Assembly (NCBI GenBank): GCA_963681965.1
Contig: OY820579.1
Coordinates: 544,001 to 608,000 of the forward strand
Direction of reading: 5' to 3'
Length of the DNA stretch: 64,000 nucleotides
From: a bacterium
GTDB taxonomy: Bacteria > Electryoneota > JAOADG01
Shown here: piece by piece, positions 10,647 to 59,103 of the stretch
Numbering within the stretch: the stretch's first letter is position 1
Layout of the letters: the number at the start of each line of letters is the position of its first letter
The notes under the pieces: generated by a model
Told to the model about the DNA's origin: nothing
The model's database searches: none
Seen by the model: the letters and a program-made list of their open reading frames with translations, nothing else
Made by a program: the position numbers and the translations under genes

Positions 10647-10665
10647 TCAGCGCGTACTTCTTTAA

Positions 10666-11308
10666 GTAGGGGCGGGTCCCCGCGCCCGCCCGTTCTAACA
10701 TCTTTTCGTTTTTTTGGTGGCGCAGGCCTCCGAGCCTGCGTCTGGTATCTTGTATCTTGATTTGTCGTTGCGAGGAACGCAGCGAAGGAACATCCGCCGT
10801 AGGCGGATAGCCGTAGCGAAGTGACGAAGCAATCTTCAGGTATCTTGTATCCTGATTCGTCGTTGCGAAGCCGCCATCGGCGGCTGTGGCAACCGGCTCT
10901 TGTGTAGCCGCAGGCTTCAGCCTGCGTTTTTTCTTGAATCTTGTATTCTGTAGTAGGGGCGCCTCCCTGCGGGCGCCCGTTCTTGTATCTTTTTATCTTG
11001 AATCTTGTTTCCTGTATCCTGATCTGTCGTTGCGAACGAAGCGCGTTCTGCGCGCGTAGTGTGGCAACCTTCGCCTTTTTTCCGTAGGGGCATATGGCAT
11101 ACGCCCCACGGCGGTGCCGTTAGCACCGCACGCGGTTCGTTCGCGAACGAACCTTACAGAAAAAGAAAGACGGCCCTAAAGGGCCATCTCCGAAAAAACA
11201 GGTGTTAGGGGGTAGGTGCTGGGAATTGGGAACGGAAAAAAGATACAGGAACGGGCGGACACGGTGGTCCGCCCCTACTGGCGGGAGGGCTCACGAGCCC
11301 TCCCCTAC
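10666..11308. repeat. Mosaic REP-like palindrome array (about 11 elements)
   Basis: GTAG/GTGG-led hairpins at 10666, 10717, 10904, 10953 and 11084. GTCGTTGCGA...GCAA[TC]C elements at 10764, 10859 and 11026. Reverse-oriented ...TAC hairpins at about 11133, 11253 and 11283. Spacers are T-rich (TCTTGTATC-like). Confidence 0.88.
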
Positions 11309-14104
11309 TTCAATAACACAATTTTCTGCGTCTTCGTAAACGCACCCGCTTGCATCCGCAAGAAGTATGTCCCCGATGAAAACTGCTTCCCATCGAATGT
11401 TATGCGGTAAGCTCCAGCTGCCTGCTTGCAGTTTACTAGTGTAGCTACAGCTCTCCCTAGTAAATCGTAGAGTATAAGTTCAACAGTACTAGCTCGGGGA
11501 ATCGAGTATGACAAAGTAGTTATTGAATTGAATGGATTCGGGTAATTCTGACAAAGTTGAAAATGATCTGGTGAACGGGTGTAATTGGCTCAATAACCGT
11601 TTCGGGAATCGTTAGTCTCGAAATGAAACAATCATTGGATCCGCCAGAATATGCAGTATCGTATGTATCTGAAGTTATAGGAAAGATCGTACTGGATGTA
11701 TAACCAGATAAGAAAATATTATTATCTGATTCATAAAATAAAGCAGTACTTCTATCATACCCAGCTCCCCCAAAAAATGAACTATATGATAATTCAGACC
11801 GATAAAGATTCATTTTTGAGATAAAACAATCGTTATTACCATTAAAAGACAGATCAAATCCGTCTGAAGTTACTGGAAAATTAATACTATTTGCGACTCC
11901 AGTGATGATAATATTTCCACTACCGATATAATTAATAGCTGCACCCCAACAACTTCCAGAATCTCCTCCCAAGTAAGTACTTTAAAGTAGTTGCGAACCA
12001 ATCGGATTCAACCAAGCGATAAAACAATTTCCATGTCCATTATTTATTGAATCAAAAGCGGTATGAGTAATTGGAAAATCATTACTACTAGTAGAGCCAG
12101 TGACAATAACTTCGCCGCTATCAACAAGAGCAACTCCTAATCCTGCATCGATCGATGAACCACCGAGGAAAGTGCTGTAAAGAAGCTGGGAGCCGGAGTC
12201 ATTGAGATGAACTACATATGCATCAGCAAGTGGATTGCTATTAAACGAGGTGTCAAATGCTCCCGGTGTAGTAGGAAATGTGGCTCCGCAACCACCTGTG
12301 ATAAATGACCCGCCATTACCATCGCTGATGATACATCTTCCATCGCCTGGTCCAAGAAGTGTACTGAAAATTAATTGAGAGCCAGTACTATTTAGACGCG
12401 AGACAAAACAATCGGAATAAGTACCACTAAAAGTAGTATCGAATACTCCCGATGTAGTTGGAAAATTACTGCTTTGAGTATATCCAGTTAAGAAAGCTCC
12501 GCCTGATCCATCGCTCGATATTGAACGCGATTGCTGTTGATTGGAACCACCTAGTAAATCGGAAAAGAATAATCGATTTCCAGAATTGCTCAATTTGACG
12601 ACAAAACAGGCTAATGAGCCACCGGCTCCAAATACGTATGAAAGTGGGAAGTAATTACTACTCGTTTAGCCGGCAAATAAATACCCATTCGAATCGGCTT
12701 TAGTGATGCTTTCACCATAATCATCATTCTCGCCACCGATGAACGTGCTGAATACTAACTGTGAAAGTGAGCTATTCATCTTCGTTACGAAACAGTCGTA
12801 GAATCCATTTGCTCCACTATTAAAAGTCGAATCGAAACTGCCGGCAGTGGTCGGAAAATTGCTGCTTCGGGTACTTCCGCCGATGACTACTCCACCATCG
12901 ACGTCAACACTCATTCCTGAAGCACAACCATCATCGGCGCCTCCTCCCAGATACGTTGAATACACCAGTGGATCTATTCTTAGTGTATGTGAGTTATCGT
13001 ACCCATTCGGCAAATCGATCGCGAAGACATTCCCTGACACGAGTGAGAATTGTGCCGTGACTTCGTTTCTGCGGGTACCATTGGATGTGGTTTGGTAAGC
13101 TCCTGGAATCGACATCCGCAATTCGCCGAGGGAAGTCATCAGTGACAGTATGTCGGAATTTATTCCGACTCCATCTAGAGTCTTGATTTGTCGTTGCGAG
13201 GAACGCAGGGCGCGACCTTGTGCGCCCGAAGAGACGAAGCAATCTTCAGGTATCTTTTCCGTAGGGGCGTATGGCATACGCCCCGCGGGCGCATCCGCGC
13301 CCGTTGCGGTGCGTTCACGAACGCACCCTACATAAGACAGATCTTCAGTCAACCCCTCGCACACCATCTTGATTTGTTTCGGGTCGGCACCGGGATGTAC
13401 TACGAAATCGAATTCGAGATGACCTTTGCTCTCATACCATTCAACATCGATGCCCTGCCAAACATCGTGATGCACCACGCGAGAGAAATTCCGGCAATCC
13501 GGTGCCCATTTGGACGAGTCATTCCCAAGGAAATAATTGTTGTGCCACGAAAATTCCCCTTGTGCACCAATCCATTTTGCGCAAGAGTAATTTCGTAGGT
13601 CGGAATTTATTCCGACATCCTCTTGTGTCGTGCATTTATCCGTAGGGGCGAATGCGATTCGCCCCTACGGGAGTCGACAAATTTGAATTTGAGCGCGTGG
13701 GATTTTAATGGAAAGGATTCATGATCAGGGCGTATGCCATACGCCCCTACGGCGGCAACGTCGTTGCCGCTTGCGGGCGGGCGTGGGAGCCCGCCCCTAC
13801 TGGAAAAAGGATCGGTGCGTTCGCGAACCGCCCCTACAAAAGATGAGGAATCGATTACCGAGGTGACGAGGGTGACACCATCCCGCTCAAGGAACCACGT
13901 GAAGCCATCGCAGCGCACCTCGCATTTGTAGAGGACGGCAGAATCCCATTGCCCCTTGTTCTCGGTGAATTGGAACGGGTGTGGCAGGCGCGTCGATTGT
14001 ACGCTGACGGCGGGTACATTGCGATACAGGGTGAGCAGGGCAATAGCCATTGCAAACAGGAGCGGTGGCGCGATTTTGGTAAATATACCATAGCGAAATC
14101 TCAC
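11305..14104 (-). pseudogene. Disrupted SBBP-repeat (beta-propeller) secreted protein with T9SS C-terminal sorting domain; paralog of 34420-37476
   Basis: GGAGG + GTG at 14104. Contains FTENKGQW, LRIDPLVYSTYLGG, repeated T.S.NFPTT.GAFD, then NYPNPFN...YDLLGR...SGTYF...KIVLLK. Broken by frameshifts near 13640 and 11580 and in-frame TAA codons at 12666-12668 and 11982-11984. Confidence 0.85.
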
Positions 14105-14188
14105 AGCACCTCCGGTCAACTTTGCGAATAGGATCTTAATATGATTGCATGCTTCTAAATAATACTATGGATCGCGAAGTAAAACAAT

Positions 14189-14244: not shown

Positions 14245-16077
14245 CTAGTTATCCAGTGCCTTCTTTGCCGCCTGTTTCGATAATTCGAAATCGAGAATCT
14301 TCTTGCGCAAGCGAATCGCGGTCGGTGTCACTTCCACCAATTCATTTTCGGCAATAAATTCGAGCGCCATTTCCAGCGTCAAAATGCGTGGTGGATGGAG
14401 TTGATATCCTTCTTCCGCCGTGGATTGCCGCATATTGGTCAACTTCTTTTCCTTGGTCGGATTGATCCAGATATCGTCGGTACGCGAATTCTCGCCGACG
14501 ATTCGACCGCTGTACACTTCATCGCCCGGCGCGACAAACATCTGTCCGCGCTCCTGCAATGTTTCCAGCGCATACGCCGTGCATCTACCGGAACGGTCCG
14601 CGACCAACACCCCGGCGATCCGGTGCGGAATTGCGCCGGCATGAGGACGCCAGCCGAGGAAGATGTGATTGACAATCGCGGTGCCGCGCGTTTCCACCAT
14701 CAGCAATGACCGCAAGCCGATCAAGCCGCGCATCGGTACTTCGAATTCAATCCGGATCCAGCCTGACGAATGATTCACCATCCGTGTCATGCGACCCTTG
14801 CGCAACCCCATCGCCTGCGTAACGGTGCCGATATACGGTTCCGGCAAATCGATCATCAGGTGCTCGTACGGTTCGTGCAATTCGTCGTTCACGCGACGAG
14901 TGCGTACCGTCGGTTTCGAGATCGATAATTCGAAACCTTCGCGCCGCATCGTTTCGATAATGATCGCGAGCTGCAATTCGCCGCGACCCACCACTTTGAA
15001 TGCATCCGGTGTTTCAGTCTCTTCGACGACAATCGAGGGATTGCCTTGAATCTCTTTGAATAAACGGTCGCGCAATTGCCGGCTGGTGACGTATTTGCCG
15101 TCGCGTCCGGAAAACGGCGAGGTATTGATCGAGAACACCATTTCGAGGGTCGGTTCGTCGATCTTCAGCGGCGGTAACAGTCGCGGATTGTCGGTATCGG
15201 TCAGCGTATCGCCCAGTTCGATCCCTTCGACACCGGAAATCGCGACGATATCGCCGGGATTCGCTTCTTCGATCGGAATTCGTTTCAAACCGGAGAATCC
15301 GAATAATTGCGTAATCTTCGTCTGCTTCAGTTGGTTTTCGTGACTCCCCATCATCACCTGTTTGCCGACGCGGATACTGCCGTTGGTGACGCGCCCAATG
15401 CCGATACGACCCAGATAGTCGCTATAGTCGAGCGAGGTGATCTGAAGTTGAAGCGGATGCCCTTCGATGAACTTTGGCGGCGGCACTTTCTCGATGATGA
15501 CATCGAACAACGGTTGCAGATTCGTTCCGGGAACCTTCAGATCCATCGTTGCGGTTCCGGCGCGGGCATTGGTGAAAATCACCGGGAAGTGGCACTGCTC
15601 TTCGCTGGCGTCGAGATCGAGAAATAGTTCGAGTACTTCGTCGACCACTTCGTCGATCCGGGCATCGGGACGATCGATTTTATTGATCACCACGATCGGC
15701 GAGAGATTGTTTGCGAGTGCATTCGACAATACATAGCGGGTCTGCGGTAACGGTCCTTCGGATGCATCGACCAGCAGCAAACAGCCGTCGACCATTTTTA
15801 AAATGCGTTGCACTTCACCGCCGAAATCGGCATGACCGGGAGTATCGACGATGTTGATCGTGTGATCGTGATAAGGGATGGCGGTGTTCTTCGCCATGAT
15901 CGTGATACCCTTCTCGCGTTCGAGATCGAGTTTATCCATGGCGCGTTCCGCGACCTGTTCGTTGGCGCGGAAAATTCCGGATTGATGAAGCATGGCATCG
16001 ACCAACGTCGTCTTTCCGTGGTCGACGTGGGCGATGATGGCGAGATTGCGCAATTCATTGCGATAAAGCTTTGACAC
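14245..16077 (-). CDS. typA: Translational GTPase TypA/BipA
   Basis: AHVDHGKTT, DTPGHADFGGEV, NKID, GRGELQL, and the C-terminal KKLTNMR and EVTP..IRLRK signatures. Confidence 0.97.
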   Translation of the reverse strand: MSKLYRNELRNLAIIAHVDHGKTTLVDAMLHQSGIFRANEQVAERAMDKLDLEREKGITIMAKNTAIPYHDHTINIVDTPGHADFGGEVQRILKMVDGCLLLVDASEGPLPQTRYVLSNALANNLSPIVVINKIDRPDARIDEVVDEVLELFLDLDASEEQCHFPVIFTNARAGTATMDLKVPGTNLQPLFDVIIEKVPPPKFIEGHPLQLQITSLDYSDYLGRIGIGRVTNGSIRVGKQVMMGSHENQLKQTKITQLFGFSGLKRIPIEEANPGDIVAISGVEGIELGDTLTDTDNPRLLPPLKIDEPTLEMVFSINTSPFSGRDGKYVTSRQLRDRLFKEIQGNPSIVVEETETPDAFKVVGRGELQLAIIIETMRREGFELSISKPTVRTRRVNDELHEPYEHLMIDLPEPYIGTVTQAMGLRKGRMTRMVNHSSGWIRIEFEVPMRGLIGLRSLLMVETRGTAIVNHIFLGWRPHAGAIPHRIAGVLVADRSGRCTAYALETLQERGQMFVAPGDEVYSGRIVGENSRTDDIWINPTKEKKLTNMRQSTAEEGYQLHPPRILTLEMALEFIAENELVEVTPTAIRLRKKILDFELSKQAAKKALDN

Positions 16078-33973: not shown

Positions 33974-34423
33974 GGTAGCCCAAACCTCCGAACTCGCGTT
34001 CTTGCATTTTAGTAGGGGCGCCTCCCCGCGGGCGCACATTCTTTTATCATTTCATCTTTTCCCATCCCCCAACACCTATCCCCTACCACCCATTTTGTTG
34101 GTGGCGCAGGCCTCCGAGCCTGCGTTCTTGTATCTTTTTTTTAAAGTACTGCCCAACTCCGATTGGACGAATCCCTGCTTTTCCGTAGGTCAGAACTTGT
34201 TCTGACCACCGCTAGTATCCTGATTTGTCGTTGCGAGGAAGATGCGTAGCATATGACGTGGCAATCTTCTCTTGTGTAGCCGCAGGCTTTAGCCTGCGTT
34301 TTTTGAATCATGTTTTCTGTGGTAGCGGCGGACTTCAGTCCGCTTTTTTTTTATTTTTTCAGGAATGGCGGACTAAAGTCCGCCGCTACCAAAAATCGGG
34401 AGGGCTCACGAGCCATCCCCTAC
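33974..34423. repeat. Mosaic REP-like palindrome array
   Basis: Hairpins at 34012, 34101 (identical 24-mer to 10717), 34184, 34227, 34276 and 34322, with reverse-oriented copies at 34367-34389 and 34398-34423. Confidence 0.88.
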
Positions 34424-37400
34424 TTCAATAACACGATCTTCTGTGTCTTGCTGAACGTTCCCGCCTGCAATCGTACAAAATACGTTCCACTCGCTAATCG
34501 TGAACCGTCGAGCAATACCCGATACGTTCCGGGACGCTGCTCGCGCTGCACAAGTGTCGATACTTCGCGACCGGTGAGATCGTAGAGACAAAGCTCGACG
34601 TGAGATGAAATTGGAAGGGTGTAGGAAAGAGTAGTGGTGGCGTTGAAGGGATTCGGAAAAGCCTTAATGCTTGCGCTTTGCGGAAGAATCGTTAACTTTA
34701 CTTCATTTGCATCAGTCGATTCCGGCAAAGTAATAAACTTCACGATAAAGGCATCCCACCCGCCTTGATTCGTGCTATCGATTGCAGAACCGGTCACTGG
34801 GAAATTGGTACTATTCGTTCTGCCAACAATCGCTAATGTATCACTACCCACTAAAACCGAACCTTCACAATTATCGTAATTATTGCCACCGATAAATGTA
34901 CTGTACATTAGTGTATCCAAAGTACTGTTAAACTTCATGATGAAACCGTCAGTACCACCACCATTGTAGAGTGAATCGAAAGAGTTGATCGTGACAGGGA
35001 ATTCGGTGCTGACTGTTACGCCAGCTGAATAAACACAATGATTGAGTCGATTAAACTGAGCACTGGTTGAGTAGTCGGTCATGCTACCACCTATATATGT
35101 GCTTAAGAAAGATGATTCCGTCGATGTATAGGTCATGTGTCCGACGAAGGCATCACCTAATTCACCGCCATGATAGGTCGTGTCGTAACCATGAGGAGAT
35201 ACTCGAAAATCGGAACTACAAGTAATTCCAGAGATAAACCAACCACCGAGACCGTCATTTGATAGACCATAGATTCGATCGGTACAATTTCCACCGATAT
35301 AAGTACTATAGGCAAGGGATCTGCAATCGGTAGAAAACACTGTAAGGAAACAGTTTCCACCGCCACGCAACTGAGAACTATAGCAATTGGATGTTGTCGG
35401 AAGATTTGTACTAGCTGTCATCCCAGCAATCGCTACCCTTCCAGAGTCATCAAAATCAATTTTATATGCGATCGTTTGAGAATTTCCACCAAAATAAGAA
35501 CTGTAGATAAGGTTCGATCCAGTACTGTTAAGGTGAGTAAGAAATACATTGGTACTGTAAAATGGCAGAGTACTATAAGCATCGGAAGTACAGGGAAAAT
35601 TCAAACCCTCAGTGTACCCAGTTACGTAAGCACCACCGTTTGCATCGCTGATAACAGATTGAGCTTCTTGGAGAGCATTATTACTGCCGAGAAGGAAACT
35701 ATAGATGATTCGCGAACCGGATGCGTTGAGACGCATAATGTAACACTTATTATCATGGATCGGTTGTGTTCGATCGAAGGCAGTAGCTGAAACTGGAAAT
35801 CCTGCACCACCCGTCGAACCGCAGACAATTGTTCCACCGGTAGGATCGGCACAGATTCCAACAGCAAAATCATCACTATTTCCACCGAGATAGGTACTGA
35901 ACAGCAGTTGATTGTCTAACGAGTTGATTGAAGATACAAAAACATCCGTAGCGGAAAGTGTCGTATCGAAAGCTCCAGATGTTACCGGAAAATCGCTACT
36001 CTGCGTGTCGCCCGCGACAACGATATTTCCAGTTGTAGTTTTACAAATTACCATTCCTTCATCTGTACCACTTCCCCCCAAATACGTGGAATACACCAGC
36101 GGATCAATTCTGAGCGTCTGCGAGGCATCATATCCAATCGGTAAATCGATCGCGAAGACATTTCTCGTCTCGAGTCTGAACTGTGCTGCGACATCGTTTC
36201 CGCGAGCGCCATTCGAGGTGGTTTGGTAGGCGCCCGGAATTTTCATCCGCAATTCACCTAGGGAGGTCATGAGTGACAGTTCATTCGACAAGAGGGAGTC
36301 GGACACTCCTGTCCGACTCCCTTTTGTGACAGAAATATCTGAGTCGACGGACAAGAGTGTCCGTCCTCCGCCTGCGATCGGTGCTTCCAATCCTTCGCAC
36401 ACCATCTGGATTTGCTTCGGATCGGCACCGGGATGCGCGACGAAATCGAATTCGAGATGCCCCTTGCTCTCGTAAAATTCGACATCGATTCCCGCCCACA
36501 CCTCGCGATACACCACGCGTGTAAAATTGCGGCAATCCGGTGCCCACTTCGAAGAATCATTCCCGAGAAAATAGTTGTTGTGCCACGATAGTTCACCCTG
36601 TGCATCAATCCGCTTTGCTTGTGCGAAGGGTAGGTCGGAATTTATTCCGACTTCCTCTTGTGTCGAATATTTTTCTGTAGGGGCGTATGGCATTCGCCCT
36701 AATCTTGTATCTTGAATCCTGATTTTGTATTTGCGAGGAATGAACGAAGGAACGTGCGAAGCACTTCCGAAGTGGAATGACGAAGCAACCCCGAAGGGCT
36801 CACCGAAGGTAATCTCCTCCTGAGTCTTTGATTCATTTAAAGAGTAGATTGCTTCGTCACTTCGCTGCGGCTTTCCGCCTTCGGCGGACGATCCTTCGCT
36901 GCGTTCCTCGCAAAGACAAGTGAAAGCATCTTGATCGGATAGGGGCGTATGCGATTCGCCCCTACGGGAATCAACAAATCTAAATTTGAGCGCGTGAGAT
37001 TTTAAACGGGAATGATGGATACGACCATTGGGATCGAATCGTGCATCATTAACGGACACGGGCGGTTCGCGAACCGCCCCTACCAAAGAAGAAGGATCAA
37101 AAAATGTCAAGAGTGGATTGCCACGTCCGCCGCTTTGCGGCGTCCTCGCAATGACAGAATTAAATGCGGTGGGCGAACACGGGGGTCCGCCCCTACTGGA
37201 AAAAGGATCGACGGGCGGGCGCGGGGACCCGCCCCTACTTGAGTCAACAATTGAGGTGACGAGGGTGACACCATCGCGCTCAAGGAACCAGGTGAAACCG
37301 TCGCGGCGGACTTCGCACTTGTAGAGCACGGCACTATCCCACTGTCCCTTGTTCTCGGTGAATTGGAAGGGATGCGGCAAGCGCGACGATTGTACACTCA

Positions 37401-37476
37401 CCGCTAACGCGGAGTGCAACCACAAAACAAGCAGTAATAAAACAAAATAAACGGTTCGGGAAAGGTCTCGCGGCAT
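34420..37476 (-). CDS. Secreted SBBP-repeat beta-propeller protein with T9SS C-terminal sorting domain and in-frame REP-derived insertions
   Basis: AGAGG + ATG 37476 and signal peptide. FTENKGQW, NYFLGND..KW, IDPLVYSTYLGG, multiple T.S.DFPVT..AFD repeats and FPNPFN.TT...SGTYF...KIVLLK. Confidence 0.9.
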   Translation of the reverse strand: MPRDLSRTVYFVLLLLVLWLHSALAVSVQSSRLPHPFQFTENKGQWDSAVLYKCEVRRDGFTWFLERDGVTLVTSIVDSSRGGSPRPPVDPFSSRGGPPCSPTAFNSVIARTPQSGGRGNPLLTFFDPSSLVGAVREPPVSVNDARFDPNGRIHHSRLKSHALKFRFVDSRRGESHTPLSDQDAFTCLCEERSEGSSAEGGKPQRSDEAIYSLNESKTQEEITFGEPFGVASSFHFGSASHVPSFIPRKYKIRIQDTRLGRMPYAPTEKYSTQEEVGINSDLPFAQAKRIDAQGELSWHNNYFLGNDSSKWAPDCRNFTRVVYREVWAGIDVEFYESKGHLEFDFVAHPGADPKQIQMVCEGLEAPIAGGGRTLLSVDSDISVTKGSRTGVSDSLLSNELSLMTSLGELRMKIPGAYQTTSNGARGNDVAAQFRLETRNVFAIDLPIGYDASQTLRIDPLVYSTYLGGSGTDEGMVICKTTTGNIVVAGDTQSSDFPVTSGAFDTTLSATDVFVSSINSLDNQLLFSTYLGGNSDDFAVGICADPTGGTIVCGSTGGAGFPVSATAFDRTQPIHDNKCYIMRLNASGSRIIYSFLLGSNNALQEAQSVISDANGGAYVTGYTEGLNFPCTSDAYSTLPFYSTNVFLTHLNSTGSNLIYSSYFGGNSQTIAYKIDFDDSGRVAIAGMTASTNLPTTSNCYSSQLRGGGNCFLTVFSTDCRSLAYSTYIGGNCTDRIYGLSNDGLGGWFISGITCSSDFRVSPHGYDTTYHGGELGDAFVGHMTYTSTESSFLSTYIGGSMTDYSTSAQFNRLNHCVYSAGVTVSTEFPVTINSFDSLYNGGGTDGFIMKFNSTLDTLMYSTFIGGNNYDNCEGSVLVGSDTLAIVGRTNSTNFPVTGSAIDSTNQGGWDAFIVKFITLPESTDANEVKLTILPQSASIKAFPNPFNATTTLSYTLPISSHVELCLYDLTGREVSTLVQREQRPGTYRVLLDGSRLASGTYFVRLQAGTFSKTQKIVLLK

Positions 37477-37621
37477 CGCTGCACCTCTGGCATAAGGCAA
37501 GTAGGGATCTTAGAAAATAATATAATCAATATTCTTAAATATTCTGACTATTGTCCAACCCTCTTCAATCTTGCCGTGAGAACTATTGTATGTGGCGCAA
37601 AAATAAGTGATATATCGAGGT

Positions 37622-40567
37622 TTAATACTGTTTGTCGTCCAAAACGACACGCAGTTTTTCCGATAGACTTCGCATCGTAAACGGTTTCTGAATGAAGTAA
37701 ATAGTCTTATCGGACGTGGTTTGGTTCGGCAAGATCTCCGCCGAATATCCCGACATGAATAAGCATTTTATGGTTGGAAATTTTTCTTTGAGTGCCACCG
37801 TCATATCCCATCCGTTCATTTCGGGCATGACGACATCAGTAAGAACCAATTGGATTTCACCGGCGTACTCTTCCGCAAGTTTCAGCGCCTCAAGTGGCGA
37901 CAATGCTTTCAACAGAGTGTAACCTTGTCGTTCAAGCACCTTCGAGATCATTTTCAATACGGCAGTTTCATCTTCAACGAGTAAAATAATTTCGTTGCCA
38001 TAGATATCAAGAGTCTGTTCTTCGCTAACTGAAGCCGACCGCGTGGTTCCCTGAAATCGCGGCAAATAAATATTGAATGTCGTTCCCTGACCGATCTCAC
38101 TCTCAACCTCGATCATTCCGTTGTTCTGCCGGACAATACCATAGACCGTTGCCAATCCCAAACCAGTGCCCTTACCGGTCTCTTTGGTAGTAAAAAACGG
38201 TTCAAACAGTCGATCGATCGTTTCGCGATTCATTCCACAACCGGTATCGCGCACCACTAAGTGGATATATTCTCCAATTGGAAGACTCGAGTGCGCAGAG
38301 CCGGTTTCGGCAGTGACCGTCAAGTTGTGAGTTTCAATGGCGATTTTGCCGATATTCCCAATGGCATCGCGGGAATTGACACAGAGATTTGCCAGAATCT
38401 GATCAATCTGCGATGGATCCATTCGTACCGACCAAAGATTAGGGGCGGGCAGCCATTGCAAATCGATATCCTCACCAATCAATCGGCGCAGCATTTTGAG
38501 CATACCGTCGATCGTTTCGTTGAGATTGAGCACTTTTGGGATAACCGTCTGTTTGCGTGCAAAGGCTAGCAGTTGCCGGGTTAAATCGGCAGATCGCTGA
38601 GCACATTTCTGAATTTCTGCAAGATTCTCCAATACCGGTTTGTCATCGGCGGTATTTTGGATTGCCAGCTCCACATTCCCGAGAATTGCTTGAAGCATAT
38701 TATTGAAATCGTGTGCGACACCACCGGCGAGGCGTCCTACCGACTCCATTTTCTGCGCCTGTTGCAACTGAGCTTCCAGTTTCGCGCTTTCCTCTTCGGC
38801 ATGTTTCCGGTCGGAGATGTCGGTAATCGTACCGACGATTCGTAATGGTTTTCCTTCGGAATCGCGTTCAACAATTCGACCGCAATCGAGGATCCAAATC
38901 CAATCGCCGCTCTTCTTTCGCTTCCGATACTCCATCACAAACATCGGTGTTTCACCGCTCAAATGACGGTCCAGCCCTTCACGAACTTTCGCGACATCTT
39001 CCGGCATCATCGTTTGAGTCCATAACCGGTTGTTCGCGTCAACTTCGGCTTGCGAATAGCCCAATAATTTTAACCATCCCGGGCTGTAGTAATTCTGGTC
39101 GTTACTCAGATCCCAATCCCATAATCCGGTATTGGTGGCATCGAGCGCTAGCTGCATACGCTCTTCGTTCAATCGCAACGCTGCTTCGGCACGTTTCTTG
39201 GCAGTGATGTTTTTACCTTCACCCAGAACGGCAAACGGTTTACCTTGTTCGTCGCGGATCAGACTGAAAGTATTATCCGACCAATAGGTCGAGCCGTCTT
39301 TGCGGTAAAATTCCAATTCGATGGATCGGGAAAAATTGTAATTCGGATCCGCCATCGCTTTCTGCAGCTCTTCATGGTAGGCTTTGATCGCACGCTCGTA
39401 ACTCTCGGCAGTGATCTGCTTTTCCATGGGTAATTGCTGAATTTCTTCCAGTGTGTATCCGCGGACCCGCTCAATCGAGGGACTGATGTAAGTCGTGTAC
39501 CAATTCAAATCCATCAATGAGACGGTGTCGTTCATGTGATCGGCAAGAAACCGGTAGCGGGCTTCACTTGCTTTCAGTTCATTCTCGGTACGTTTCCAGT
39601 CGGTGATATCCATCGTGAATCCTGCCAGCAAGACGGGACTACCCGGACGGGAAATCGGAAATTTCGTGGTGATATACTGGCGACCGTTTAATTCTTCATA
39701 TAGTTCGATCGATTGTCTTTGAGCAATGATTTGTTTGTCGTCCTCGATCATCTTTTGGGCAAATTCGGTCGGGAACAGATCAAACATCGGTTTTCCCAGC
39801 AGGGTATTCAGTGGTCTACCGATCATGTTTTCGAAATTTCGACTAAGGAGCAGCGTTTTTAGATCCTGATCCTTGAAGAAGACATAAACGGGACAATGAT
39901 CCATGAAGAGTTGAAACAGATCTTCTTTTTCTTGTAGCGCCTGTTCACTTTTTTTAAGTGCGTTTGCAGTAATCTGTAAAGTATTAATGCGCTCTTCTTC
40001 GAGGAGTTTGAAATGTCGACGCAAAATCAGGATCAATACCCCTGCGATAACCACACATACTAGAATGGAATAGCCGGTGATAACTGAGCGCGAATCGTAG
40101 TGGGAAAATTGGAGTAAGAAAGTGCTCGAAATTGCTAACACGGCAATCACGATCGATGTGATTTGAGGCGAGAAGGCAATCGCAGTCACGATGATCGGGA
40201 TAATCGCGGTGGCTAATACCCCGATTTCCGCATTGGGGTCGGGCATAAATGGTGCAACGATCGGAACGAGTAAACACGTGACGATGTAAATCCACAATCC
40301 GGTAAGGTAGTTGCCAGTTCGCAAGAACCCGTATGCGAGCGCGACAAAAAGTAATCCAAAGCAGACAATCAAGAAATCCAGATCACCCAAAATCGACCGA
40401 TGTTCATACGTTACCCAAAGCACATCCAGTATTATCGCTGCGAGCGTCGCGAAACCAATATGCGCGAGCATCAAGGACTGAAATAGTCGAGCAGTCCGGT
40501 GTTGAACCTGATCGGTAATTCTGTGGTGTGGTCGGGTGGCGGTATCCCAAAATGCCGTTAAGTGCAT
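37622..40567 (-). CDS. Membrane-bound PAS hybrid histidine kinase with receiver domain
   Basis: About six TMs and three PAS domains. GRLAGGVAHDFNN H-box, NSRDA, DTGCGM, FEPFFTTK and GTGLGL, then a C-terminal REC (LTDVVMP). Confidence 0.95.
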   Translation of the reverse strand: MHLTAFWDTATRPHHRITDQVQHRTARLFQSLMLAHIGFATLAAIILDVLWVTYEHRSILGDLDFLIVCFGLLFVALAYGFLRTGNYLTGLWIYIVTCLLVPIVAPFMPDPNAEIGVLATAIIPIIVTAIAFSPQITSIVIAVLAISSTFLLQFSHYDSRSVITGYSILVCVVIAGVLILILRRHFKLLEEERINTLQITANALKKSEQALQEKEDLFQLFMDHCPVYVFFKDQDLKTLLLSRNFENMIGRPLNTLLGKPMFDLFPTEFAQKMIEDDKQIIAQRQSIELYEELNGRQYITTKFPISRPGSPVLLAGFTMDITDWKRTENELKASEARYRFLADHMNDTVSLMDLNWYTTYISPSIERVRGYTLEEIQQLPMEKQITAESYERAIKAYHEELQKAMADPNYNFSRSIELEFYRKDGSTYWSDNTFSLIRDEQGKPFAVLGEGKNITAKKRAEAALRLNEERMQLALDATNTGLWDWDLSNDQNYYSPGWLKLLGYSQAEVDANNRLWTQTMMPEDVAKVREGLDRHLSGETPMFVMEYRKRKKSGDWIWILDCGRIVERDSEGKPLRIVGTITDISDRKHAEEESAKLEAQLQQAQKMESVGRLAGGVAHDFNNMLQAILGNVELAIQNTADDKPVLENLAEIQKCAQRSADLTRQLLAFARKQTVIPKVLNLNETIDGMLKMLRRLIGEDIDLQWLPAPNLWSVRMDPSQIDQILANLCVNSRDAIGNIGKIAIETHNLTVTAETGSAHSSLPIGEYIHLVVRDTGCGMNRETIDRLFEPFFTTKETGKGTGLGLATVYGIVRQNNGMIEVESEIGQGTTFNIYLPRFQGTTRSASVSEEQTLDIYGNEIILLVEDETAVLKMISKVLERQGYTLLKALSPLEALKLAEEYAGEIQLVLTDVVMPEMNGWDMTVALKEKFPTIKCLFMSGYSAEILPNQTTSDKTIYFIQKPFTMRSLSEKLRVVLDDKQY

Positions 40568-58546: not shown

Positions 58547-58560
58547 CGAATTTTTTTTCC

Positions 58561-58917
58561 GTAGGGGCGTATCGCATATGCCCTTTTCTTTTTTTATTCA
58601 TGTCGTTTTTTTTAGTAGGGGAGGGCTCCCACGCCCTCCCGTGTTTTTTTTAGTAGGGGGGCATCCCCGCATGCCCCCGTTCTTGTATCTTTTTTCCGTA
58701 GGGGCGTATGGCATACGCCCTTTTCATTTTTTATTCATGTCGTTTTTTTAAGTAGGGGATGGCTCCCACGCCCTCCCGTTCTTGTATCATTTCTCCGTAG
58801 GGGCGTATCGCATACGCCCTTTTCTTTTTTTATTCATGTCGTTTTTAAGTAGGGGAGGGCTCCCACGCCCTCCCGTTCTTGTATCATTTCTCCGTAGGGG
58901 CGTATGGCATACGCCCC
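58561..58917 (+). repeat. BIME-like tandem array of alternating REP-like hairpins
   Basis: GTAGGGGCGTAT(G/C)GCATA(C/T)GCCC at 58561, 58698, 58797 and 58894. GTAGGGGA(G/T)GGCTCCCACGCCCTCCC at 58615, 58752 and 58849. A third type at 58653. Unit about 97-99 bp. Confidence 0.92.
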
Positions 58918-59103
58918 ATTTGTCCGTCATGAGGAGGACACCGAATCAAACGACAGGCAAGAGCGCCTGTCGCAACGGATGATGAATAAACACATCGCAG
59001 GCTCGGAGGTCTGCGTCACCGACAGACGGCGTCTGGTGCTGCCTGCCGCTTCGGACGAATGCGATTCGCCCCTACGAGAACAATCGCGCTCTCTTCTGGA
59101 TTT

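What the first reader, a model, noticed from the sequence alone, without database searches (positions are those of the whole stretch)
36290..37240. REP cassettes translated in frame in three hypervariable slots of a secreted protein
Seen: the intact gene of about 1018 aa has REP clusters at about 37005-37240, 36630-36966 and 36295-36365. They translate to RGGSPRPP, VGAVREPP, RRGESHTP, CLCEERS..RSDEAI, GRMPYAPT, VGINSDL and RTGVSDS with no stop codon. The paralog has cassettes at the same three positions (about 13728-13836, 13595-13668 and 13152-13331) but with different REP content and length, while the flanking coding blocks are near-identical. Established: coding palindromic insertions are known as Rickettsia palindromic elements, usually single copies. 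Inference: REP traffic acts as a loop-diversifying or recombination mechanism for a T9SS surface-protein family, possibly an undescribed diversification system.
Basis: partly seen in the sequence, partly recalled or inferred. Interest (0 to 1): 0.8.

Follow-up and report, generated by a model that had tools for sequence, protein, structure and literature searches.

The report
REP hairpins translated inside secreted-protein loops
Small selfish DNA hairpins that normally sit between genes have filled three floppy loops of a large family of secreted proteins in this bacterium and are read as protein; this is an unusually large and dynamic case of a phenomenon already known from Rickettsia and a few other bacteria.

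Summary
The gene at window 34420-37500 (-) carries palindromic repeats in frame in three slots of its N-terminal DUF7948 domain: 37003-37254, 36601-36975 and 36265-36387.

- **Size of the family:** the genome holds about 24 close paralogs. 19 are intact and every slot in them is in frame. The window paralog is a pseudogene, frameshifted in slot 2.
- **Selection:** the core blocks are under strong purifying selection (dN/dS 0.02-0.21). The slots model as disordered loops.
- **What fills the slots:** slots 1 and 2 hold GTAG-tagged REPs that are abundant genome-wide. RAYT transposase genes lie nearby. The slot 3 palindromes are almost confined to this gene family.
- **Other species:** distant homologues have a compact domain, and one read (L007) has no palindromes. 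Two sister genomes carry GTAG-tagged palindromes in homologues that I read.
- **Dynamics:** whole slots move between paralogs by gene conversion. The two closest paralog pairs differ in 5 of 6 slots.
- **Unexplained:** the hairpins are almost invariant, although neighbouring 4-fold sites are highly diverged.

I read this as tolerated REP colonisation plus paralog conversion, filtered by selection for an open frame. It is a new variant of known intragenic REPs and RPEs, and no dedicated diversification machinery is shown. This scan has noted similar in-frame repeats in other genomes.

The parts
34420..37500 (-). Intact gene: leader, DUF7948 domain with three repeat-filled slots, SBBP beta-propeller region, T9SS C-terminal sorting domain
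   Evidence: ORF of 1026 aa. Pfam DUF7948 139.5 bits, SBBP 35.6, Por_Secre_tail 37.0, all above their cut-offs.
37402..37476 (-). Probable signal peptide, aa 9-33 counted from the ATG at codon 9 (inferred)
   Evidence: A hydrophobic stretch follows a basic N-terminus in the translation. No signal-peptide predictor was run.
37255..37386 (-). Core block A of DUF7948
   Evidence: 129 nt compared in 19 paralogs, dN/dS 0.02. Modelled as beta strands with pLDDT 80-92.
37003..37254 (-). Slot 1: 252 nt, 171 nt more than the repeat-free state. Holds three GTAG-headed REPs and one CATTGCGAGG-type repeat, read in frame.
   Evidence: Up to 173 blastn hits genome-wide. pLDDT below 50 and no secondary structure.
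37213..37234 (-). REP hairpin with GTAG head, stem 7, loop 8; encodes part of RGGSPRPP
   Evidence: A 30-nt stretch is 100% complementary to the intergenic copy at 10664-10693 (I12).
37171..37210 (-). Second GTAG-headed REP, with an imperfect stem; encodes RGGPPCSP
   Evidence: Direct-repeat family D8. Translation.
37060..37079 (-). REP hairpin with GTAG head, stem 10, loop 0; encodes VGAVREPP. The most abundant REP type in the genome.
   Evidence: 173 hits. Zero diversity over 24 nt in 6 paralogs.
36976..37002 (-). Core block B (KSHALKFRF strand) between slots 1 and 2
   Evidence: Anchor found in 23 of 28 loci. Modelled as a strand, pLDDT about 92.
36601..36975 (-). Slot 2: 375 nt, against 81 nt in the shortest paralogs. 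A chain of REPs and composite repeats read in frame.
   Evidence: 230 matches outside the family. pLDDT below 50 across aa 144-250 of the model.
36940..36964 (-). REP hairpin with GTAG head; encodes RRGESHTPL
   Evidence: family D14.
36846..36924 (-). Composite repeat (CEERSEGSS..RSDEAI), also present inverted in the intergenic cluster at 10757-10835
   Evidence: Inverted repeat I1, 79 nt, 90% complementary.
36634..36651 (-). REP hairpin with its GTAG head on the opposite strand; encodes VGINSDL. It has the same hairpin core as the inverted repeat pair upstream of the second RAYT-like gene.
   Evidence: The exact 21-mer is in slot 2 of 12 intact paralogs. The same hairpin flanks the RAYT-like gene.
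36388..36600 (-). Core block C of DUF7948
   Evidence: 213 nt, dN/dS 0.045. Best Pfam stretch. pLDDT 82-96.
36265..36387 (-). Slot 3: 123 nt, against 48 nt in paralog F20. An inverted pair of palindromes that is almost confined to this gene family.
   Evidence: pLDDT below 50 at aa 342-364 of the model.
36346..36365 (-). Slot 3 palindrome 1 (stem 8, loop 4), not GTAG-tagged
   Evidence: Diversity 0.007 over both hairpins in 14 paralogs.
36293..36322 (-). Slot 3 palindrome 2 (stem 13, loop 4), close to the reverse complement of palindrome 1
36085..36264 (-). Core block D of DUF7948
   Evidence: 180 nt, dN/dS 0.21. pLDDT 88-93.
34432..34659 (-). Por_Secre_tail (T9SS C-terminal sorting domain), aa 948-1023
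   Evidence: Pfam PF18962, 37 bits against a cut-off of 27.
11520..14119 (-). Paralog F05, a pseudogene with the same three slots (13706-13861, 13563-13678, 13134-13349)
   Evidence: Broken into four ORF pieces. Slot 2 is 116 nt, so the frame shifts there.

Best explanation
The gene encodes a T9SS-type secreted beta-propeller protein. Its N-terminal DUF7948 domain has three loops between beta strands.

In the lineage of this genome and its two nearest sampled relatives, small mobile palindromes entered these loops. These are GTAG-tagged REPs of the kind served by RAYT tyrosine transposases, plus related composite repeats.

The repeat-bearing gene expanded here to about 24 close paralogs. Since then the slot contents have kept changing in three ways:
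1. Further REP gain next to resident REPs.
2. Deletions.
3. Gene conversion between paralogs, which carries whole slots from one copy to another.

Selection for an intact protein removes variants that shift the frame or bring a stop. What survives is therefore in frame and is translated as long disordered loop extensions, 180 extra residues in this gene.

**Shown:** the in-frame architecture, purifying selection on the core, the loop positions in the model, REP identity for slots 1 and 2, mosaic conversion tracts, and pseudogenes with slot frameshifts.

**Inferred:** that RAYTs did the inserting, that the protein is secreted, and that the loops are merely tolerated and serve no use.
For: **Family size and frame.**
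- tblastn of aa 1-470 finds 28 loci in the genome. 19 close paralogs have a single ORF of 854-1030 aa.
- Slot lengths are multiples of 3 in 24/24 loci for slot 1, 20/22 for slot 2 and 24/24 for slot 3. The two exceptions, F05 and F25, are frameshifted pseudogenes.

**Selection on the core.** Core blocks A, C and D have dN/dS of 0.02, 0.045 and 0.21, with pS of 0.37-0.59 over 171 pairs. Translation must therefore run through the slots.

**Structure.** In the AlphaFold model the core has pLDDT 80-96 and is beta-rich. The slots have pLDDT below 50 and no secondary structure. 204 of 434 residues fall below 50.

**The compact state.**
- Paralog F20 (254 aa) and a distant homologue (253 aa) match DUF7948 positions 1-214 in one stretch. 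The target is split into 2 stretches and a G003 homologue into 3.
- All 48 homologous loci from other genomes that could be measured, out of the 80 scanned, have domains of 205-310 aa. The same measure gives about 426 aa here.

**REP identity and distribution.**
- 750 REP heads were counted in 7 k-mer families.
- 74 of them lie in the family's N-terminal regions, which make up about 1.1% of the genome.
- Outside the family, only 13 of 676 lie in a frame that stays open for at least 100 codons on both sides. The figure is 52% for random positions.
- 559 of 750 REP heads have a neighbour within 150 nt.

**Transposases.** Two RAYT-like genes, each with its own repeats beside it, lie 14-18 kb upstream of the window. 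They score 94.2 and 78.8 bits against NCBIfam REP_Tyr_transpos, whose cut-off is 80.

**Relatives.** A homologue read in G001 (L014) and one in G003 (L006) carry GTAG-headed palindromes inside the domain, at positions that fall between the core blocks. A homologue in G014 carries untagged palindromes.

**Conversion.**
- Mosaic tracts are significant in the core blocks.
- F09/F14 are identical over 221 core nt and also over slot 2. F09/F19 are identical over 107 core nt and also over slot 3. F16/F27 are identical over 65 core nt and also over slot 1.

**Little protein-level constraint in the slots.** pN is 0.05-0.08 and pS is 0.06-0.16.
Against: - There is no direct evidence of expression or of the REP-coded peptides. 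No run listed for this stretch is on record as RNA.
- The hairpins inside the genes are far more conserved than tolerated junk should be. Diversity is 0.000-0.007, against 0.36-0.38 at 4-fold sites in the flanking codons. The slot 3 hairpins have almost no donor pool outside the family. Conversion alone explains this awkwardly, so some selection at the DNA or RNA level may be acting.
- No RAYT was matched to the commonest REP type (GTAGGGGCGG...). I did not search specifically for one.
- Enrichment in this one family may owe more to amplification of a repeat-bearing founder gene than to repeated targeting. The two cannot be separated on a star-like tree.
- The model rests on an alignment of 20 sequences. 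Its mean pLDDT is 61.
Confidence: 0.7

Rival explanations
1. The in-gene hairpins are functional nucleic-acid elements. They might be RNA structures that tune translation or mRNA stability of these secreted proteins, or DNA sites bound or processed by a RAYT or another protein. On this view they are kept by selection at the nucleotide level, and the peptides they encode are a by-product. This can coexist with the best explanation.
For: - Hairpin stems and loops are almost invariant. Diversity is 0.007 over 43 nt in 14 paralogs and 0 over 24 nt in 6 paralogs. An exact 21-mer is present in 12 paralogs.
- 4-fold sites in the neighbouring codons have a diversity of 0.36-0.38. The spacer between the slot 3 hairpins has 0.137.
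- The slot 3 palindrome is almost confined to the family. 17 of the 20 sites lie at the slot-3 position of close paralogs and one more in the distant paralog F28. A large outside pool therefore cannot be refreshing it.
- A related palindrome sits just after block A in at least three family genes of G003 (C44, C11, C91) and elsewhere in that genome.
Against: - Short-tract conversion among about 20 family copies could also keep them uniform. Conversion between paralogs is demonstrably active.
- Paralog F20 and distant homologues do without the slot 3 pair.
- No function was tested, and no Rfam or covariation analysis was run.
- Invariant stems offer no compensatory changes with which to test pairing.
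Confidence: 0.2
2. A dedicated, adaptive diversification mechanism. RAYT-driven insertion and excision of REPs rewrites three surface loops of a secreted protein family so as to vary their length and sequence.
For: - Architectures are many: 12, 13 and 6 distinct lengths in slots 1, 2 and 3.
- The two closest paralog pairs (F01/F02 and F09/F14) differ in 5 of 6 slots.
- Pairs such as F01/F02 and F17/F18 have identical core flanks around slots of different content. Changes are therefore recent.
- The same composite cassette occurs in slot 2 of F02 and F17 and in slot 3 of F01.
- RAYT genes are present.
- Homologues read in two related genomes carry their own GTAG-tagged palindromes between the core blocks.
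Against: - Nothing links the RAYT genes to the family beyond lying in the same genome.
- REP orientation shows no clear replication-strand bias.
- The slot peptides show no excess of non-synonymous change.
- All the variation seen is between old paralogs (pS 0.37-0.59). None was seen within a population.
- Tolerated intragenic REPs occur in many unrelated proteins (PMC3733652).
- Two of the broken copies were broken in a slot. This is what unguided traffic would produce.
Confidence: 0.1
3. Neutral repeat litter in a decaying gene family. On this view the open frames are accidental.
For: - REP arrays are poor in stop codons. 249 of 676 REP heads outside the family lie in a frame that stays open for at least 30 codons on both sides.
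- Seven family loci are broken.
Against: - 19 intact ORFs of 854-1030 aa.
- Core dN/dS of 0.02-0.21.
- 29 of 31 distinct slot lengths are multiples of 3.
Confidence: 0.03

Closest known systems
Intragenic GTAG- and CGTC-tagged REPs (Di Nocera, De Gregorio and Rocco 2013, PMC3733652; passages read)
   Same: - Short GTAG-tagged palindromes of the REP superfamily sit inside ORFs without breaking the frame, as singles, dimers or clusters.
- The authors judged them probably neutral, lying in modular or loop regions.
- RAYT genes flanked by REPs are present in the same genomes.
   Different: - The published cases are scattered over unrelated proteins, many of them DNA repair proteins. Their largest clusters encode 43-82 aa.
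- Here one family of about 24 paralogs holds the repeats in three fixed loops, adding up to 180 aa per protein.
- Many architectures exist, paralogs exchange slots, and nearly all long-ORF cases in the genome fall in this one family.
Rickettsia palindromic elements, RPE (Ogata et al. 2000, as summarised in PMC2229807, passages read, and in PMC3733652)
   Same: - Selfish palindromic DNA is inserted in frame in protein-coding genes and translated.
- The review judges the effect neutral or slightly harmful in the one case tested, gmk.
   Different: - RPEs are 105-146 bp elements specific to Rickettsia. They mostly occur as single insertions in conserved housekeeping genes, 19 ORFs in the first report.
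- The elements here are 20-30 bp GTAG hairpins and composites. They are chained several per slot in a lineage-specific family of secreted proteins.
REP insertions inside tnpAREP (RAYT) genes, subclass 2.4 (Quentin, Siguier, Chandler and Fichant 2018, PMC6006769; one passage read)
   Same: - REPs are inserted in frame in a variable peripheral region of a protein, between conserved motifs.
- This genome has such a case of its own at G000:345430-346359.
   Different: The host protein is different. That report describes no paralog-wide series of slots.
BIME-type REP clusters and REPINs (PMC2817692 and PMC3116915, search listing and abstracts only)
   Same: - REPs occur in clusters, and in inverted pairs with a spacer. 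The slot 3 pair has that layout.
- The slot 1 and 2 chains resemble the intergenic clusters of this genome. One 79-nt composite is shared with the cluster at 10757-10835.
   Different: Those elements are defined as extragenic. Here the clusters are embedded in codons and kept open.

Membership tests
GTAG-tagged REP superfamily (slots 1 and 2) | Short palindrome (about 20-40 bp) with the tetranucleotide GTAG at one end | tested here: met
   Hairpins at 37213-37234, 37060-37079 and 36940-36964 carry a GTAG head. The hairpin at 36634-36651 carries it on the other strand.
GTAG-tagged REP superfamily (slots 1 and 2) | High copy number, dispersed over the genome, mostly between genes | tested here: met
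   750 heads in 7 k-mer families. GTAGGGGCG occurs 427 times, against about 25 expected. Outside the family, 13 of 676 lie in frames that stay open for at least 100 codons on both sides, against 52% of random positions.
GTAG-tagged REP superfamily (slots 1 and 2) | A cognate RAYT gene flanked by the REPs | tested here: inconclusive
   Met for the GTCAGAAC type: that RAYT scores 94.2 bits against a cut-off of 80 and has GTAG-tagged REPs on both sides. The second RAYT-like ORF scores 78.8 bits. An inverted pair with the GTCGGAAT hairpin core, without a GTAG tag there, lies upstream of it only. No RAYT was matched to the commonest GGGCGG type, and I did not search specifically for one.
GTAG-tagged REP superfamily (slot 3 palindromes) | GTAG tag and genome-wide dispersal | tested here: not met
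   The two hairpins have no GTAG next to them. There are only 2 blastn matches outside the family. Of the 20 pattern sites, 17 lie at the slot-3 position of close family paralogs and one more in the distant paralog F28.
REPIN (inverted REP doublet) | Two REPs in inverted orientation separated by a short spacer, copied as a unit by a RAYT | tested here: inconclusive
   The slot 3 hairpins are near reverse complements of each other, 26 nt apart, and the unit adds 75 nt compared with F20. No link to a RAYT and no mobility are shown.
Rickettsia palindromic elements (RPE) | Rickettsia-specific elements of 105-146 bp with long terminal inverted repeats | tested here: not met
   The units here are hairpins of 18-30 bp. 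The nearest named relatives belong to Calditrichota (record titles). The resemblance lies in behaviour and does not make these elements family members. No sequence comparison with RPEs was run.
Pfam DUF7948 (PF25778) | Profile match above the gathering score | tested here: met
   139.5-145.3 bits against a cut-off of 27, in 2 stretches. The repeat-poor paralog F20 matches positions 1-214 in one stretch.
T9SS cargo protein | C-terminal Por_Secre_tail sorting domain | tested here: met
   PF18962, 37 bits against a cut-off of 27, at aa 948-1023.
T9SS cargo protein | T9SS machinery encoded in the genome, and an N-terminal signal peptide | not tested
   I did not search for the machinery genes. The leader is judged by eye from the translation.
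Dedicated diversification systems (for example diversity-generating retroelements) | A reverse transcriptase with a template repeat and a variable repeat, or another dedicated enzyme next to the target genes | not tested
   No search was made. The ORFs around the gene that I read are a PAS histidine kinase-type gene upstream and short ORFs. None was seen to be shared between the family loci.

The most novel reading that the evidence does not exclude
The three loops are standing landing pads. REP hairpins are actively kept there at the nucleotide level, by RAYT-linked copy-correction or by selection on mRNA or DNA structure. REP gain and loss together with slot-sized gene conversion keep re-dealing loop length and sequence across a family of some two dozen secreted surface proteins. 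On this reading selfish palindromes have been domesticated as a generator of loop diversity.
Probability: 0.12. Interest if true: 0.85.

Novelty: new variant of a known kind. Interest (0 to 1): 0.58.

Why it matters
In-frame palindromic repeats are usually met as isolated curiosities. Here about 24 paralogs in one genome, plus relatives in two sister genomes, give a replicated natural experiment.
- The same three loops occur in repeat-free states and in states loaded with 25 to 180 extra residues.
- Pseudogenes are present that were broken in the slots themselves.
- Conversion tracts show how cassettes move between copies.

This makes three long-standing questions directly testable:
1. How selfish DNA becomes new protein sequence.
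2. How much insertion a folded domain tolerates.
3. Why REP hairpins stay uniform. In this gene family they are about 50 times less diverse than adjacent 4-fold sites.

It also carries a practical warning. Families of this kind break short-read assemblies, and they inflate the apparent number of 'novel' low-complexity protein segments.

Tried and rejected
- **Generic GTAG-hairpin detector.** It found 983 hits, but a shuffled control gave 49 per Mb per strand. That is too unspecific, so I replaced it with k-mer families.
- **Population heterogeneity and expression.** No RNA holder is listed. All four runs that I laid (2 studies) are short Logan contigs that break at the repeats. No piece spans a slot, and the listed joints have short sides of 20-39 nt, as repeats elsewhere would give. 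Nothing can be said about heterogeneity. Several unique pieces fit with 0 differences, for example 37132-37218 and 36537-36643.
- **Fold search against PDB.** I did not try the VIA-align libraries.
- **Replication-strand bias of REPs.** Six of seven families are close to even. The GTCAG type is 50 to 31. This gives no clear signature of single-strand insertion.
- **Concerted evolution as the cause of the DNA-level similarity of the N-terminal domains.** Rejected as the main cause. Synonymous sites are heavily diverged (pS 0.37-0.59), so the similarity is mostly protein constraint. Local conversion tracts do exist.
- **Whether conversion tracts are preferentially centred on slots.** In 6 of the 9 pairs that I chose to inspect, the longest identical core stretch spans a slot junction. 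Roughly half would do so by chance, so I make no claim.
- **In-frame REPs in other long ORFs.** I picked 11 loci from the list by open-frame length and read their translations. Most look like chance k-mer matches in ordinary genes, or read-through upstream of the likely start. The one clear case is a RAYT-like gene. This was judged by eye only.
- **Literature search.** The terms were too generic and nothing usable came back.
- **Supplementary tables of PMC3733652** (its list of intragenic REPs) were not opened. They may hold a comparable family-wide case.
Full report
**1. What is at the coordinates**

The finding lies in the 5' third of an intact ORF at window 34420-37500 on the minus strand. 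The ORF is 1026 aa from a TTG start, or 1018 aa from the ATG at codon 9. Pfam finds three things:
- an N-terminal DUF7948 domain, 139.5 bits, split into two stretches;
- an SBBP beta-propeller repeat;
- a C-terminal Por_Secre_tail domain, 37 bits against a cut-off of 27.

The protein therefore looks like T9SS cargo. I judged the leader peptide by eye and did not search for the T9SS machinery.

I set slot borders from conserved protein anchors:
- slot 1 at 37003-37254, 252 nt;
- slot 2 at 36601-36975, 375 nt;
- slot 3 at 36265-36387, 123 nt.

Six perfect palindromes with stems of 7-13 lie in the slots, and none lies in the core blocks of this gene.

**2. The repeats are real, and most belong to a genome-wide population**

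The genome is one contig of 4.24 Mb.
- GTAGGGGCG occurs 230+197 times, against 12 expected per strand. Several other GTAG-headed families have 60-80 copies each.
- Counting seven k-mer families gives 750 REP heads. 559 of them have a neighbour within 150 nt.
- A short-word blastn of the gene's 5' region finds about 24-25 hits over the core blocks, which are the paralogs. It finds up to 173 hits over the REP parts of slots 1 and 2, and a single hit over the propeller DNA.
- The slot 1 and 2 sequences of the paralogs have roughly 16-250 matches outside the family. Some are composite matches of up to 226 nt at 73-91% identity.
- One 79-nt composite in slot 2 is 90% complementary to the intergenic cluster at 10757-10835. 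A 30-nt REP in slot 1 is 100% complementary to 10664-10693.

Slot 3 is different. Its two palindromes have no GTAG tag and only 2 blastn matches outside the family. The pattern has 20 sites in the genome. 17 lie at the slot-3 position of close family paralogs, and one more lies in the distant paralog F28.

Two RAYT-like genes lie 14-18 kb upstream of the window.
- The first scores 94.2 bits against NCBIfam REP_Tyr_transpos (cut-off 80). GTAG-tagged REPs lie on both sides of it.
- The second scores 78.8 bits. Upstream of it lies an inverted pair with the same hairpin core as the slot 2 REP.

Earlier notes of this scan had already described this genome as saturated with GTAG REPs. My counts agree.

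**3. A family of about two dozen paralogs**

tblastn of aa 1-470 finds 28 loci in the genome.
- 19 close paralogs have one uninterrupted ORF of 854-1030 aa.
- Two further members, F13 and F23, are distant and have long open frames.
- Seven are broken.

The protein alignment shows nearly identical core blocks. Between them lie three slots with mosaic repeat-derived peptides.

Slot lengths across all loci with anchors:

| Slot | Multiples of 3 | Distinct lengths |
|---|---|---|
| 1 | 24 of 24 | 12 (81-252 nt) |
| 2 | 20 of 22 | 13 (81-402 nt) |
| 3 | 24 of 24 | 6 (48-237 nt) |

In all, 29 of 31 distinct lengths are in frame.

The two out-of-frame slots, 116 and 245 nt, belong to F05 and F25. Both shift frame inside slot 2. 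F05 is the window paralog at 11520-14119.

The other broken copies fail in other ways:
- F10 has one nonsense codon in block C.
- F15 has a frameshift in the propeller.
- F22 is a 5' fragment.
- F12 has an IS256/IS1249-like transposase gene inside a slot 1 repeat.

Compared with the shortest states (81, 81 and 48 nt), the intact genes carry 0 to 180 extra residues. The target carries the most.

In the 19 intact genes, perfect palindromes are distributed as follows:
- slots: 93 in 8,571 nt, or 10.9 per kb;
- rest of the N-terminus: 9 in 13,970 nt, or 0.64 per kb;
- C-terminal part: 23 in 30,946 nt, or 0.74 per kb.

**4. The genes are functional and are read through the slots**

Nei-Gojobori estimates over 171 pairs of the 19 intact paralogs:

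| Core block | pS | pN | dN/dS |
|---|---|---|---|
| A | 0.59 | 0.025 | 0.02 |
| C | 0.52 | 0.041 | 0.045 |
| D | 0.37 | 0.103 | 0.21 |

The paralogs are therefore old, and the domain is under strong protein-level constraint on both sides of every slot. That constraint only makes sense if translation passes through the slots in frame. I have no direct evidence of expression.

**5. The slots are loops, and the repeat-free state is the norm elsewhere**

I made an AlphaFold model of aa 39-472 from an alignment of 20 sequences.
- The core blocks come out as beta strands with pLDDT 80-96.
- The model has no secondary structure and pLDDT below 50 for residues 53-124 (slot 1), 144-250 (slot 2) and 342-364 (slot 3).
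- 204 of 434 residues are below 50. Mean pLDDT is 61.
- Each slot lies between two confident strands.
- A Foldseek search of PDB named no fold.

Paralog F20 (254 aa) and a distant homologue (253 aa) match DUF7948 positions 1-214 in a single stretch. The target is split into 2 stretches and a G003 homologue of 509 aa into 3.

I measured the domain in loci from other genomes returned by the search for related loci. 48 of the 80 loci scanned could be measured, and all 48 are 205-310 aa. The same measure gives about 426 aa here. The record titles of the nearest named relatives point to Calditrichota. More distant hits are Zixibacteria and Bacteroidota.

**6. Relatives carry palindromes between the same core blocks**

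Among 31 genomes searched, 10 have a match. The same-genus genome G001 has 33 matches and the same-family genome G003 has 46.
- Their matches are split into the same blocks.
- A G003 homologue (L006) and a G001 homologue (L014) carry GTAG-headed palindromes inside the domain. By their positions these fall between the core blocks.
- In G001, all 7 exact copies of one REP variant lie in the slot region between block A and block C, or next to the single block present on a short contig.
- A homologue in a third family (G014) has six perfect palindromes without a GTAG tag, three before and three after block C by their positions. A compact homologue, L007, has none.
- The slot 3 palindrome of this genome has relatives in G003. 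There they lie just after block A in at least three family genes (C44, C11, C91), which is the slot 1 position.

These loops have therefore been colonised more than once, by different palindromes.

**7. Dynamics: conversion and turnover**

The tree of the 522-nt core is star-like. Of 16 inner branches, 2 are well supported and 13 are drawn open.

A GENECONV-style permutation test was run on 235 polymorphic core sites.
- The longest run of matching sites is 84, for F09/F14. The 95th percentile of permutations is 31, and 0 of 1000 permutations reach 84.
- 14 of 171 pairs have p<=0.01, where about 1.7 are expected.

The tracts carry slots with them:
- F09/F14 are identical over 221 core nt and also over slot 2 (81 nt, 0 differences).
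- F09/F19 are identical over 107 core nt and also over slot 3 (123 nt, 0 differences).
- F16/F27 are identical over 65 core nt and also over slot 1 (105 nt, 0 differences).
- F01/F18 share about 500 nt at roughly 1.6% divergence, covering slot 1, block B and slot 2. Their core third positions differ by 26-30%.

Of 120 paralog pairs with the same slot architecture, 106 differ less in the slot (all positions) than in the constrained core.

The opposite also happens. The two closest core pairs, F01/F02 and F09/F14, share only 1 of 6 slot architectures. F01/F02, F17/F18 and F01/F17 have identical core flanks around slots of different content. One composite cassette appears in slot 2 of F02 and F17 and in slot 3 of F01.

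Slot content thus changes faster than synonymous sites, and it moves between copies and between slots. I could not show that conversion tracts prefer the slots. 6 of the 9 pairs I inspected span a junction, and about half would by chance.

**8. What stays unexplained**

The hairpins themselves are almost frozen:
- diversity 0.007 over the 43 nt of the two slot 3 hairpins, in 14 paralogs;
- diversity 0.000 over the 24-nt slot 1 REP, in 6 paralogs;
- an exact 21-mer in slot 2 of 12 paralogs.

For comparison, diversity is 0.36-0.38 at 4-fold sites of the flanking core codons and 0.137 in the spacer between the slot 3 hairpins.

Protein-level selection cannot explain this, because third positions are frozen too. 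In the slots pN is 0.05-0.08 and pS is 0.06-0.16. Two readings remain open:
- frequent short-patch conversion among repeat copies;
- selection on the hairpins as DNA or RNA.

The slot 3 pair has next to no outside pool to be refreshed from, which favours the second reading for that pair.

A polishing artefact seems unlikely. Unique short contigs from runs of two studies fit parts of the slots with 0 differences. I could not test this properly.

**9. Mechanism I commit to**

I put 0.7 on tolerated colonisation of three permissive loops by RAYT-type REPs. The steps are:
1. A repeat-bearing gene is amplified into a family.
2. REPs continue to be gained next to resident REPs.
3. Deletions occur.
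4. Paralogs exchange slots by gene conversion.
5. All of this passes through selection for an open frame.

The parts that are inferred and not shown are that RAYTs did the inserting, that the protein is secreted, and that the loops have no function.

The rivals are:
- selection on the hairpins as nucleic-acid elements (0.2, compatible with the above);
- a dedicated adaptive diversification device (0.1);
- neutral litter (0.03).

**10. Comparison with what is known**

- In-frame GTAG and CGTC REPs in ORFs of Opitutus terrae, Rickettsia conorii and Thauera, with clusters encoding 43-82 aa and a neutral-insertion reading, are described in PMC3733652 (passages read).
- RPEs in 19 Rickettsia ORFs, with a translated and active gmk product, are summarised in PMC2229807 (passages read).
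- REPs in frame between the HuH and Tyr motifs of tnpAREP genes are reported in PMC6006769 (one passage read). This genome has such a case at G000:345430-346359.
- This scan has noted in-frame repeats in fixed loops of paralogs in other genomes. I did not check those notes.

What is new here is scale and structure:
- three fixed slots across about 24 paralogs, with GTAG-tagged palindromes also present in homologues read from two sister genomes;
- up to 180 added residues in a domain of about 250 aa;
- demonstrable slot exchange between paralogs;
- near-invariant hairpins;
- near-exclusivity of this family among the long ORFs of the genome.

On the last point, 13 of 676 outside REP heads lie in long open frames, and the 11 loci that I read were mostly chance matches. 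My literature searches turned up no family-wide case like this. I did not open the supplementary tables of PMC3733652.

**Verdict:** a new variant of a known kind.

Noticed in passing
G000:C1:345430-346359 (+), outside the window (locus L114): A third RAYT-like ORF. It scores 68 bits against NCBIfam REP_Tyr_transpos, in 2 stretches, below the cut-off of 80. An HUH-type motif and a C-terminal Tyr region are present. About four tandem 28-aa units, built on a GTAG-headed REP, are read in frame between the two motifs. This matches what PMC6006769 reports for subclass 2.4 tnpAREP genes.
   Followed up: partly
G000:C1:526636-527133 and 529654-530136 (-), 14-18 kb upstream of the window (L116, L115): Two RAYT-like genes of 166 and 161 aa. 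GTAG-tagged REPs lie on both sides of the second listed gene. An inverted repeat pair lies upstream of the first listed gene, and its hairpin core is the one that encodes VGINSDL in slot 2 of the family.
   Followed up: partly
G000:C1:1544135-1545022 (-), inside paralog F12 (L113): An IS256/IS1249-like transposase ORF (295 aa, below the curated cut-offs) sits inside a slot 1 repeat of a family pseudogene. It may be an insertion sequence that targets REPs.
   Followed up: partly
window 10655-11320, 34001-34430, 58550-59080: Dense intergenic clusters of the same REP families. They include 97-99-nt periodic two-hairpin units at 58550-58920. The first two clusters lie just downstream of the two family genes in the window.
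   Followed up: no
Core blocks of the 19 intact paralogs (genome-wide): The family tree is star-like (13 of 16 inner branches unresolved), although pS is 0.37-0.59. This suggests either a burst of duplication or a signal erased by conversion. The propeller parts are unique at the DNA level, while the N-terminal domain is 80-86% identical.
   Followed up: partly
G001 contigs C20, C318, C471, C482, C530, C566, C711: One REP variant has 7 exact copies in the same-genus genome. All 7 lie in the slot region of family genes. Many family genes there sit at contig ends, so these repeats probably break that assembly.
   Followed up: partly
L005 (G014:C3), domain nt 154-212 and 509-668: A homologue from another family of the phylum has six perfect palindromes (stems 7-12) without a GTAG tag, three before and three after block C by position. 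The loops seem to attract unrelated palindromes as well.
   Followed up: no
G000:C1:907845-908147: A stretch outside any family gene matches slot 3 (92 nt, about 80%) and the F01-type slot 1 cassette (161 nt, 80%). It may be a gene remnant or a cassette-only array.
   Followed up: no
window 37622-40567 (-) and 14245-16077 (-): The neighbours upstream of the two family genes in the window are a 981-aa PAS/histidine-kinase/receiver-type protein and a 610-aa translational GTPase-like protein. These labels come from reading the translations. No family search was run.
   Followed up: no
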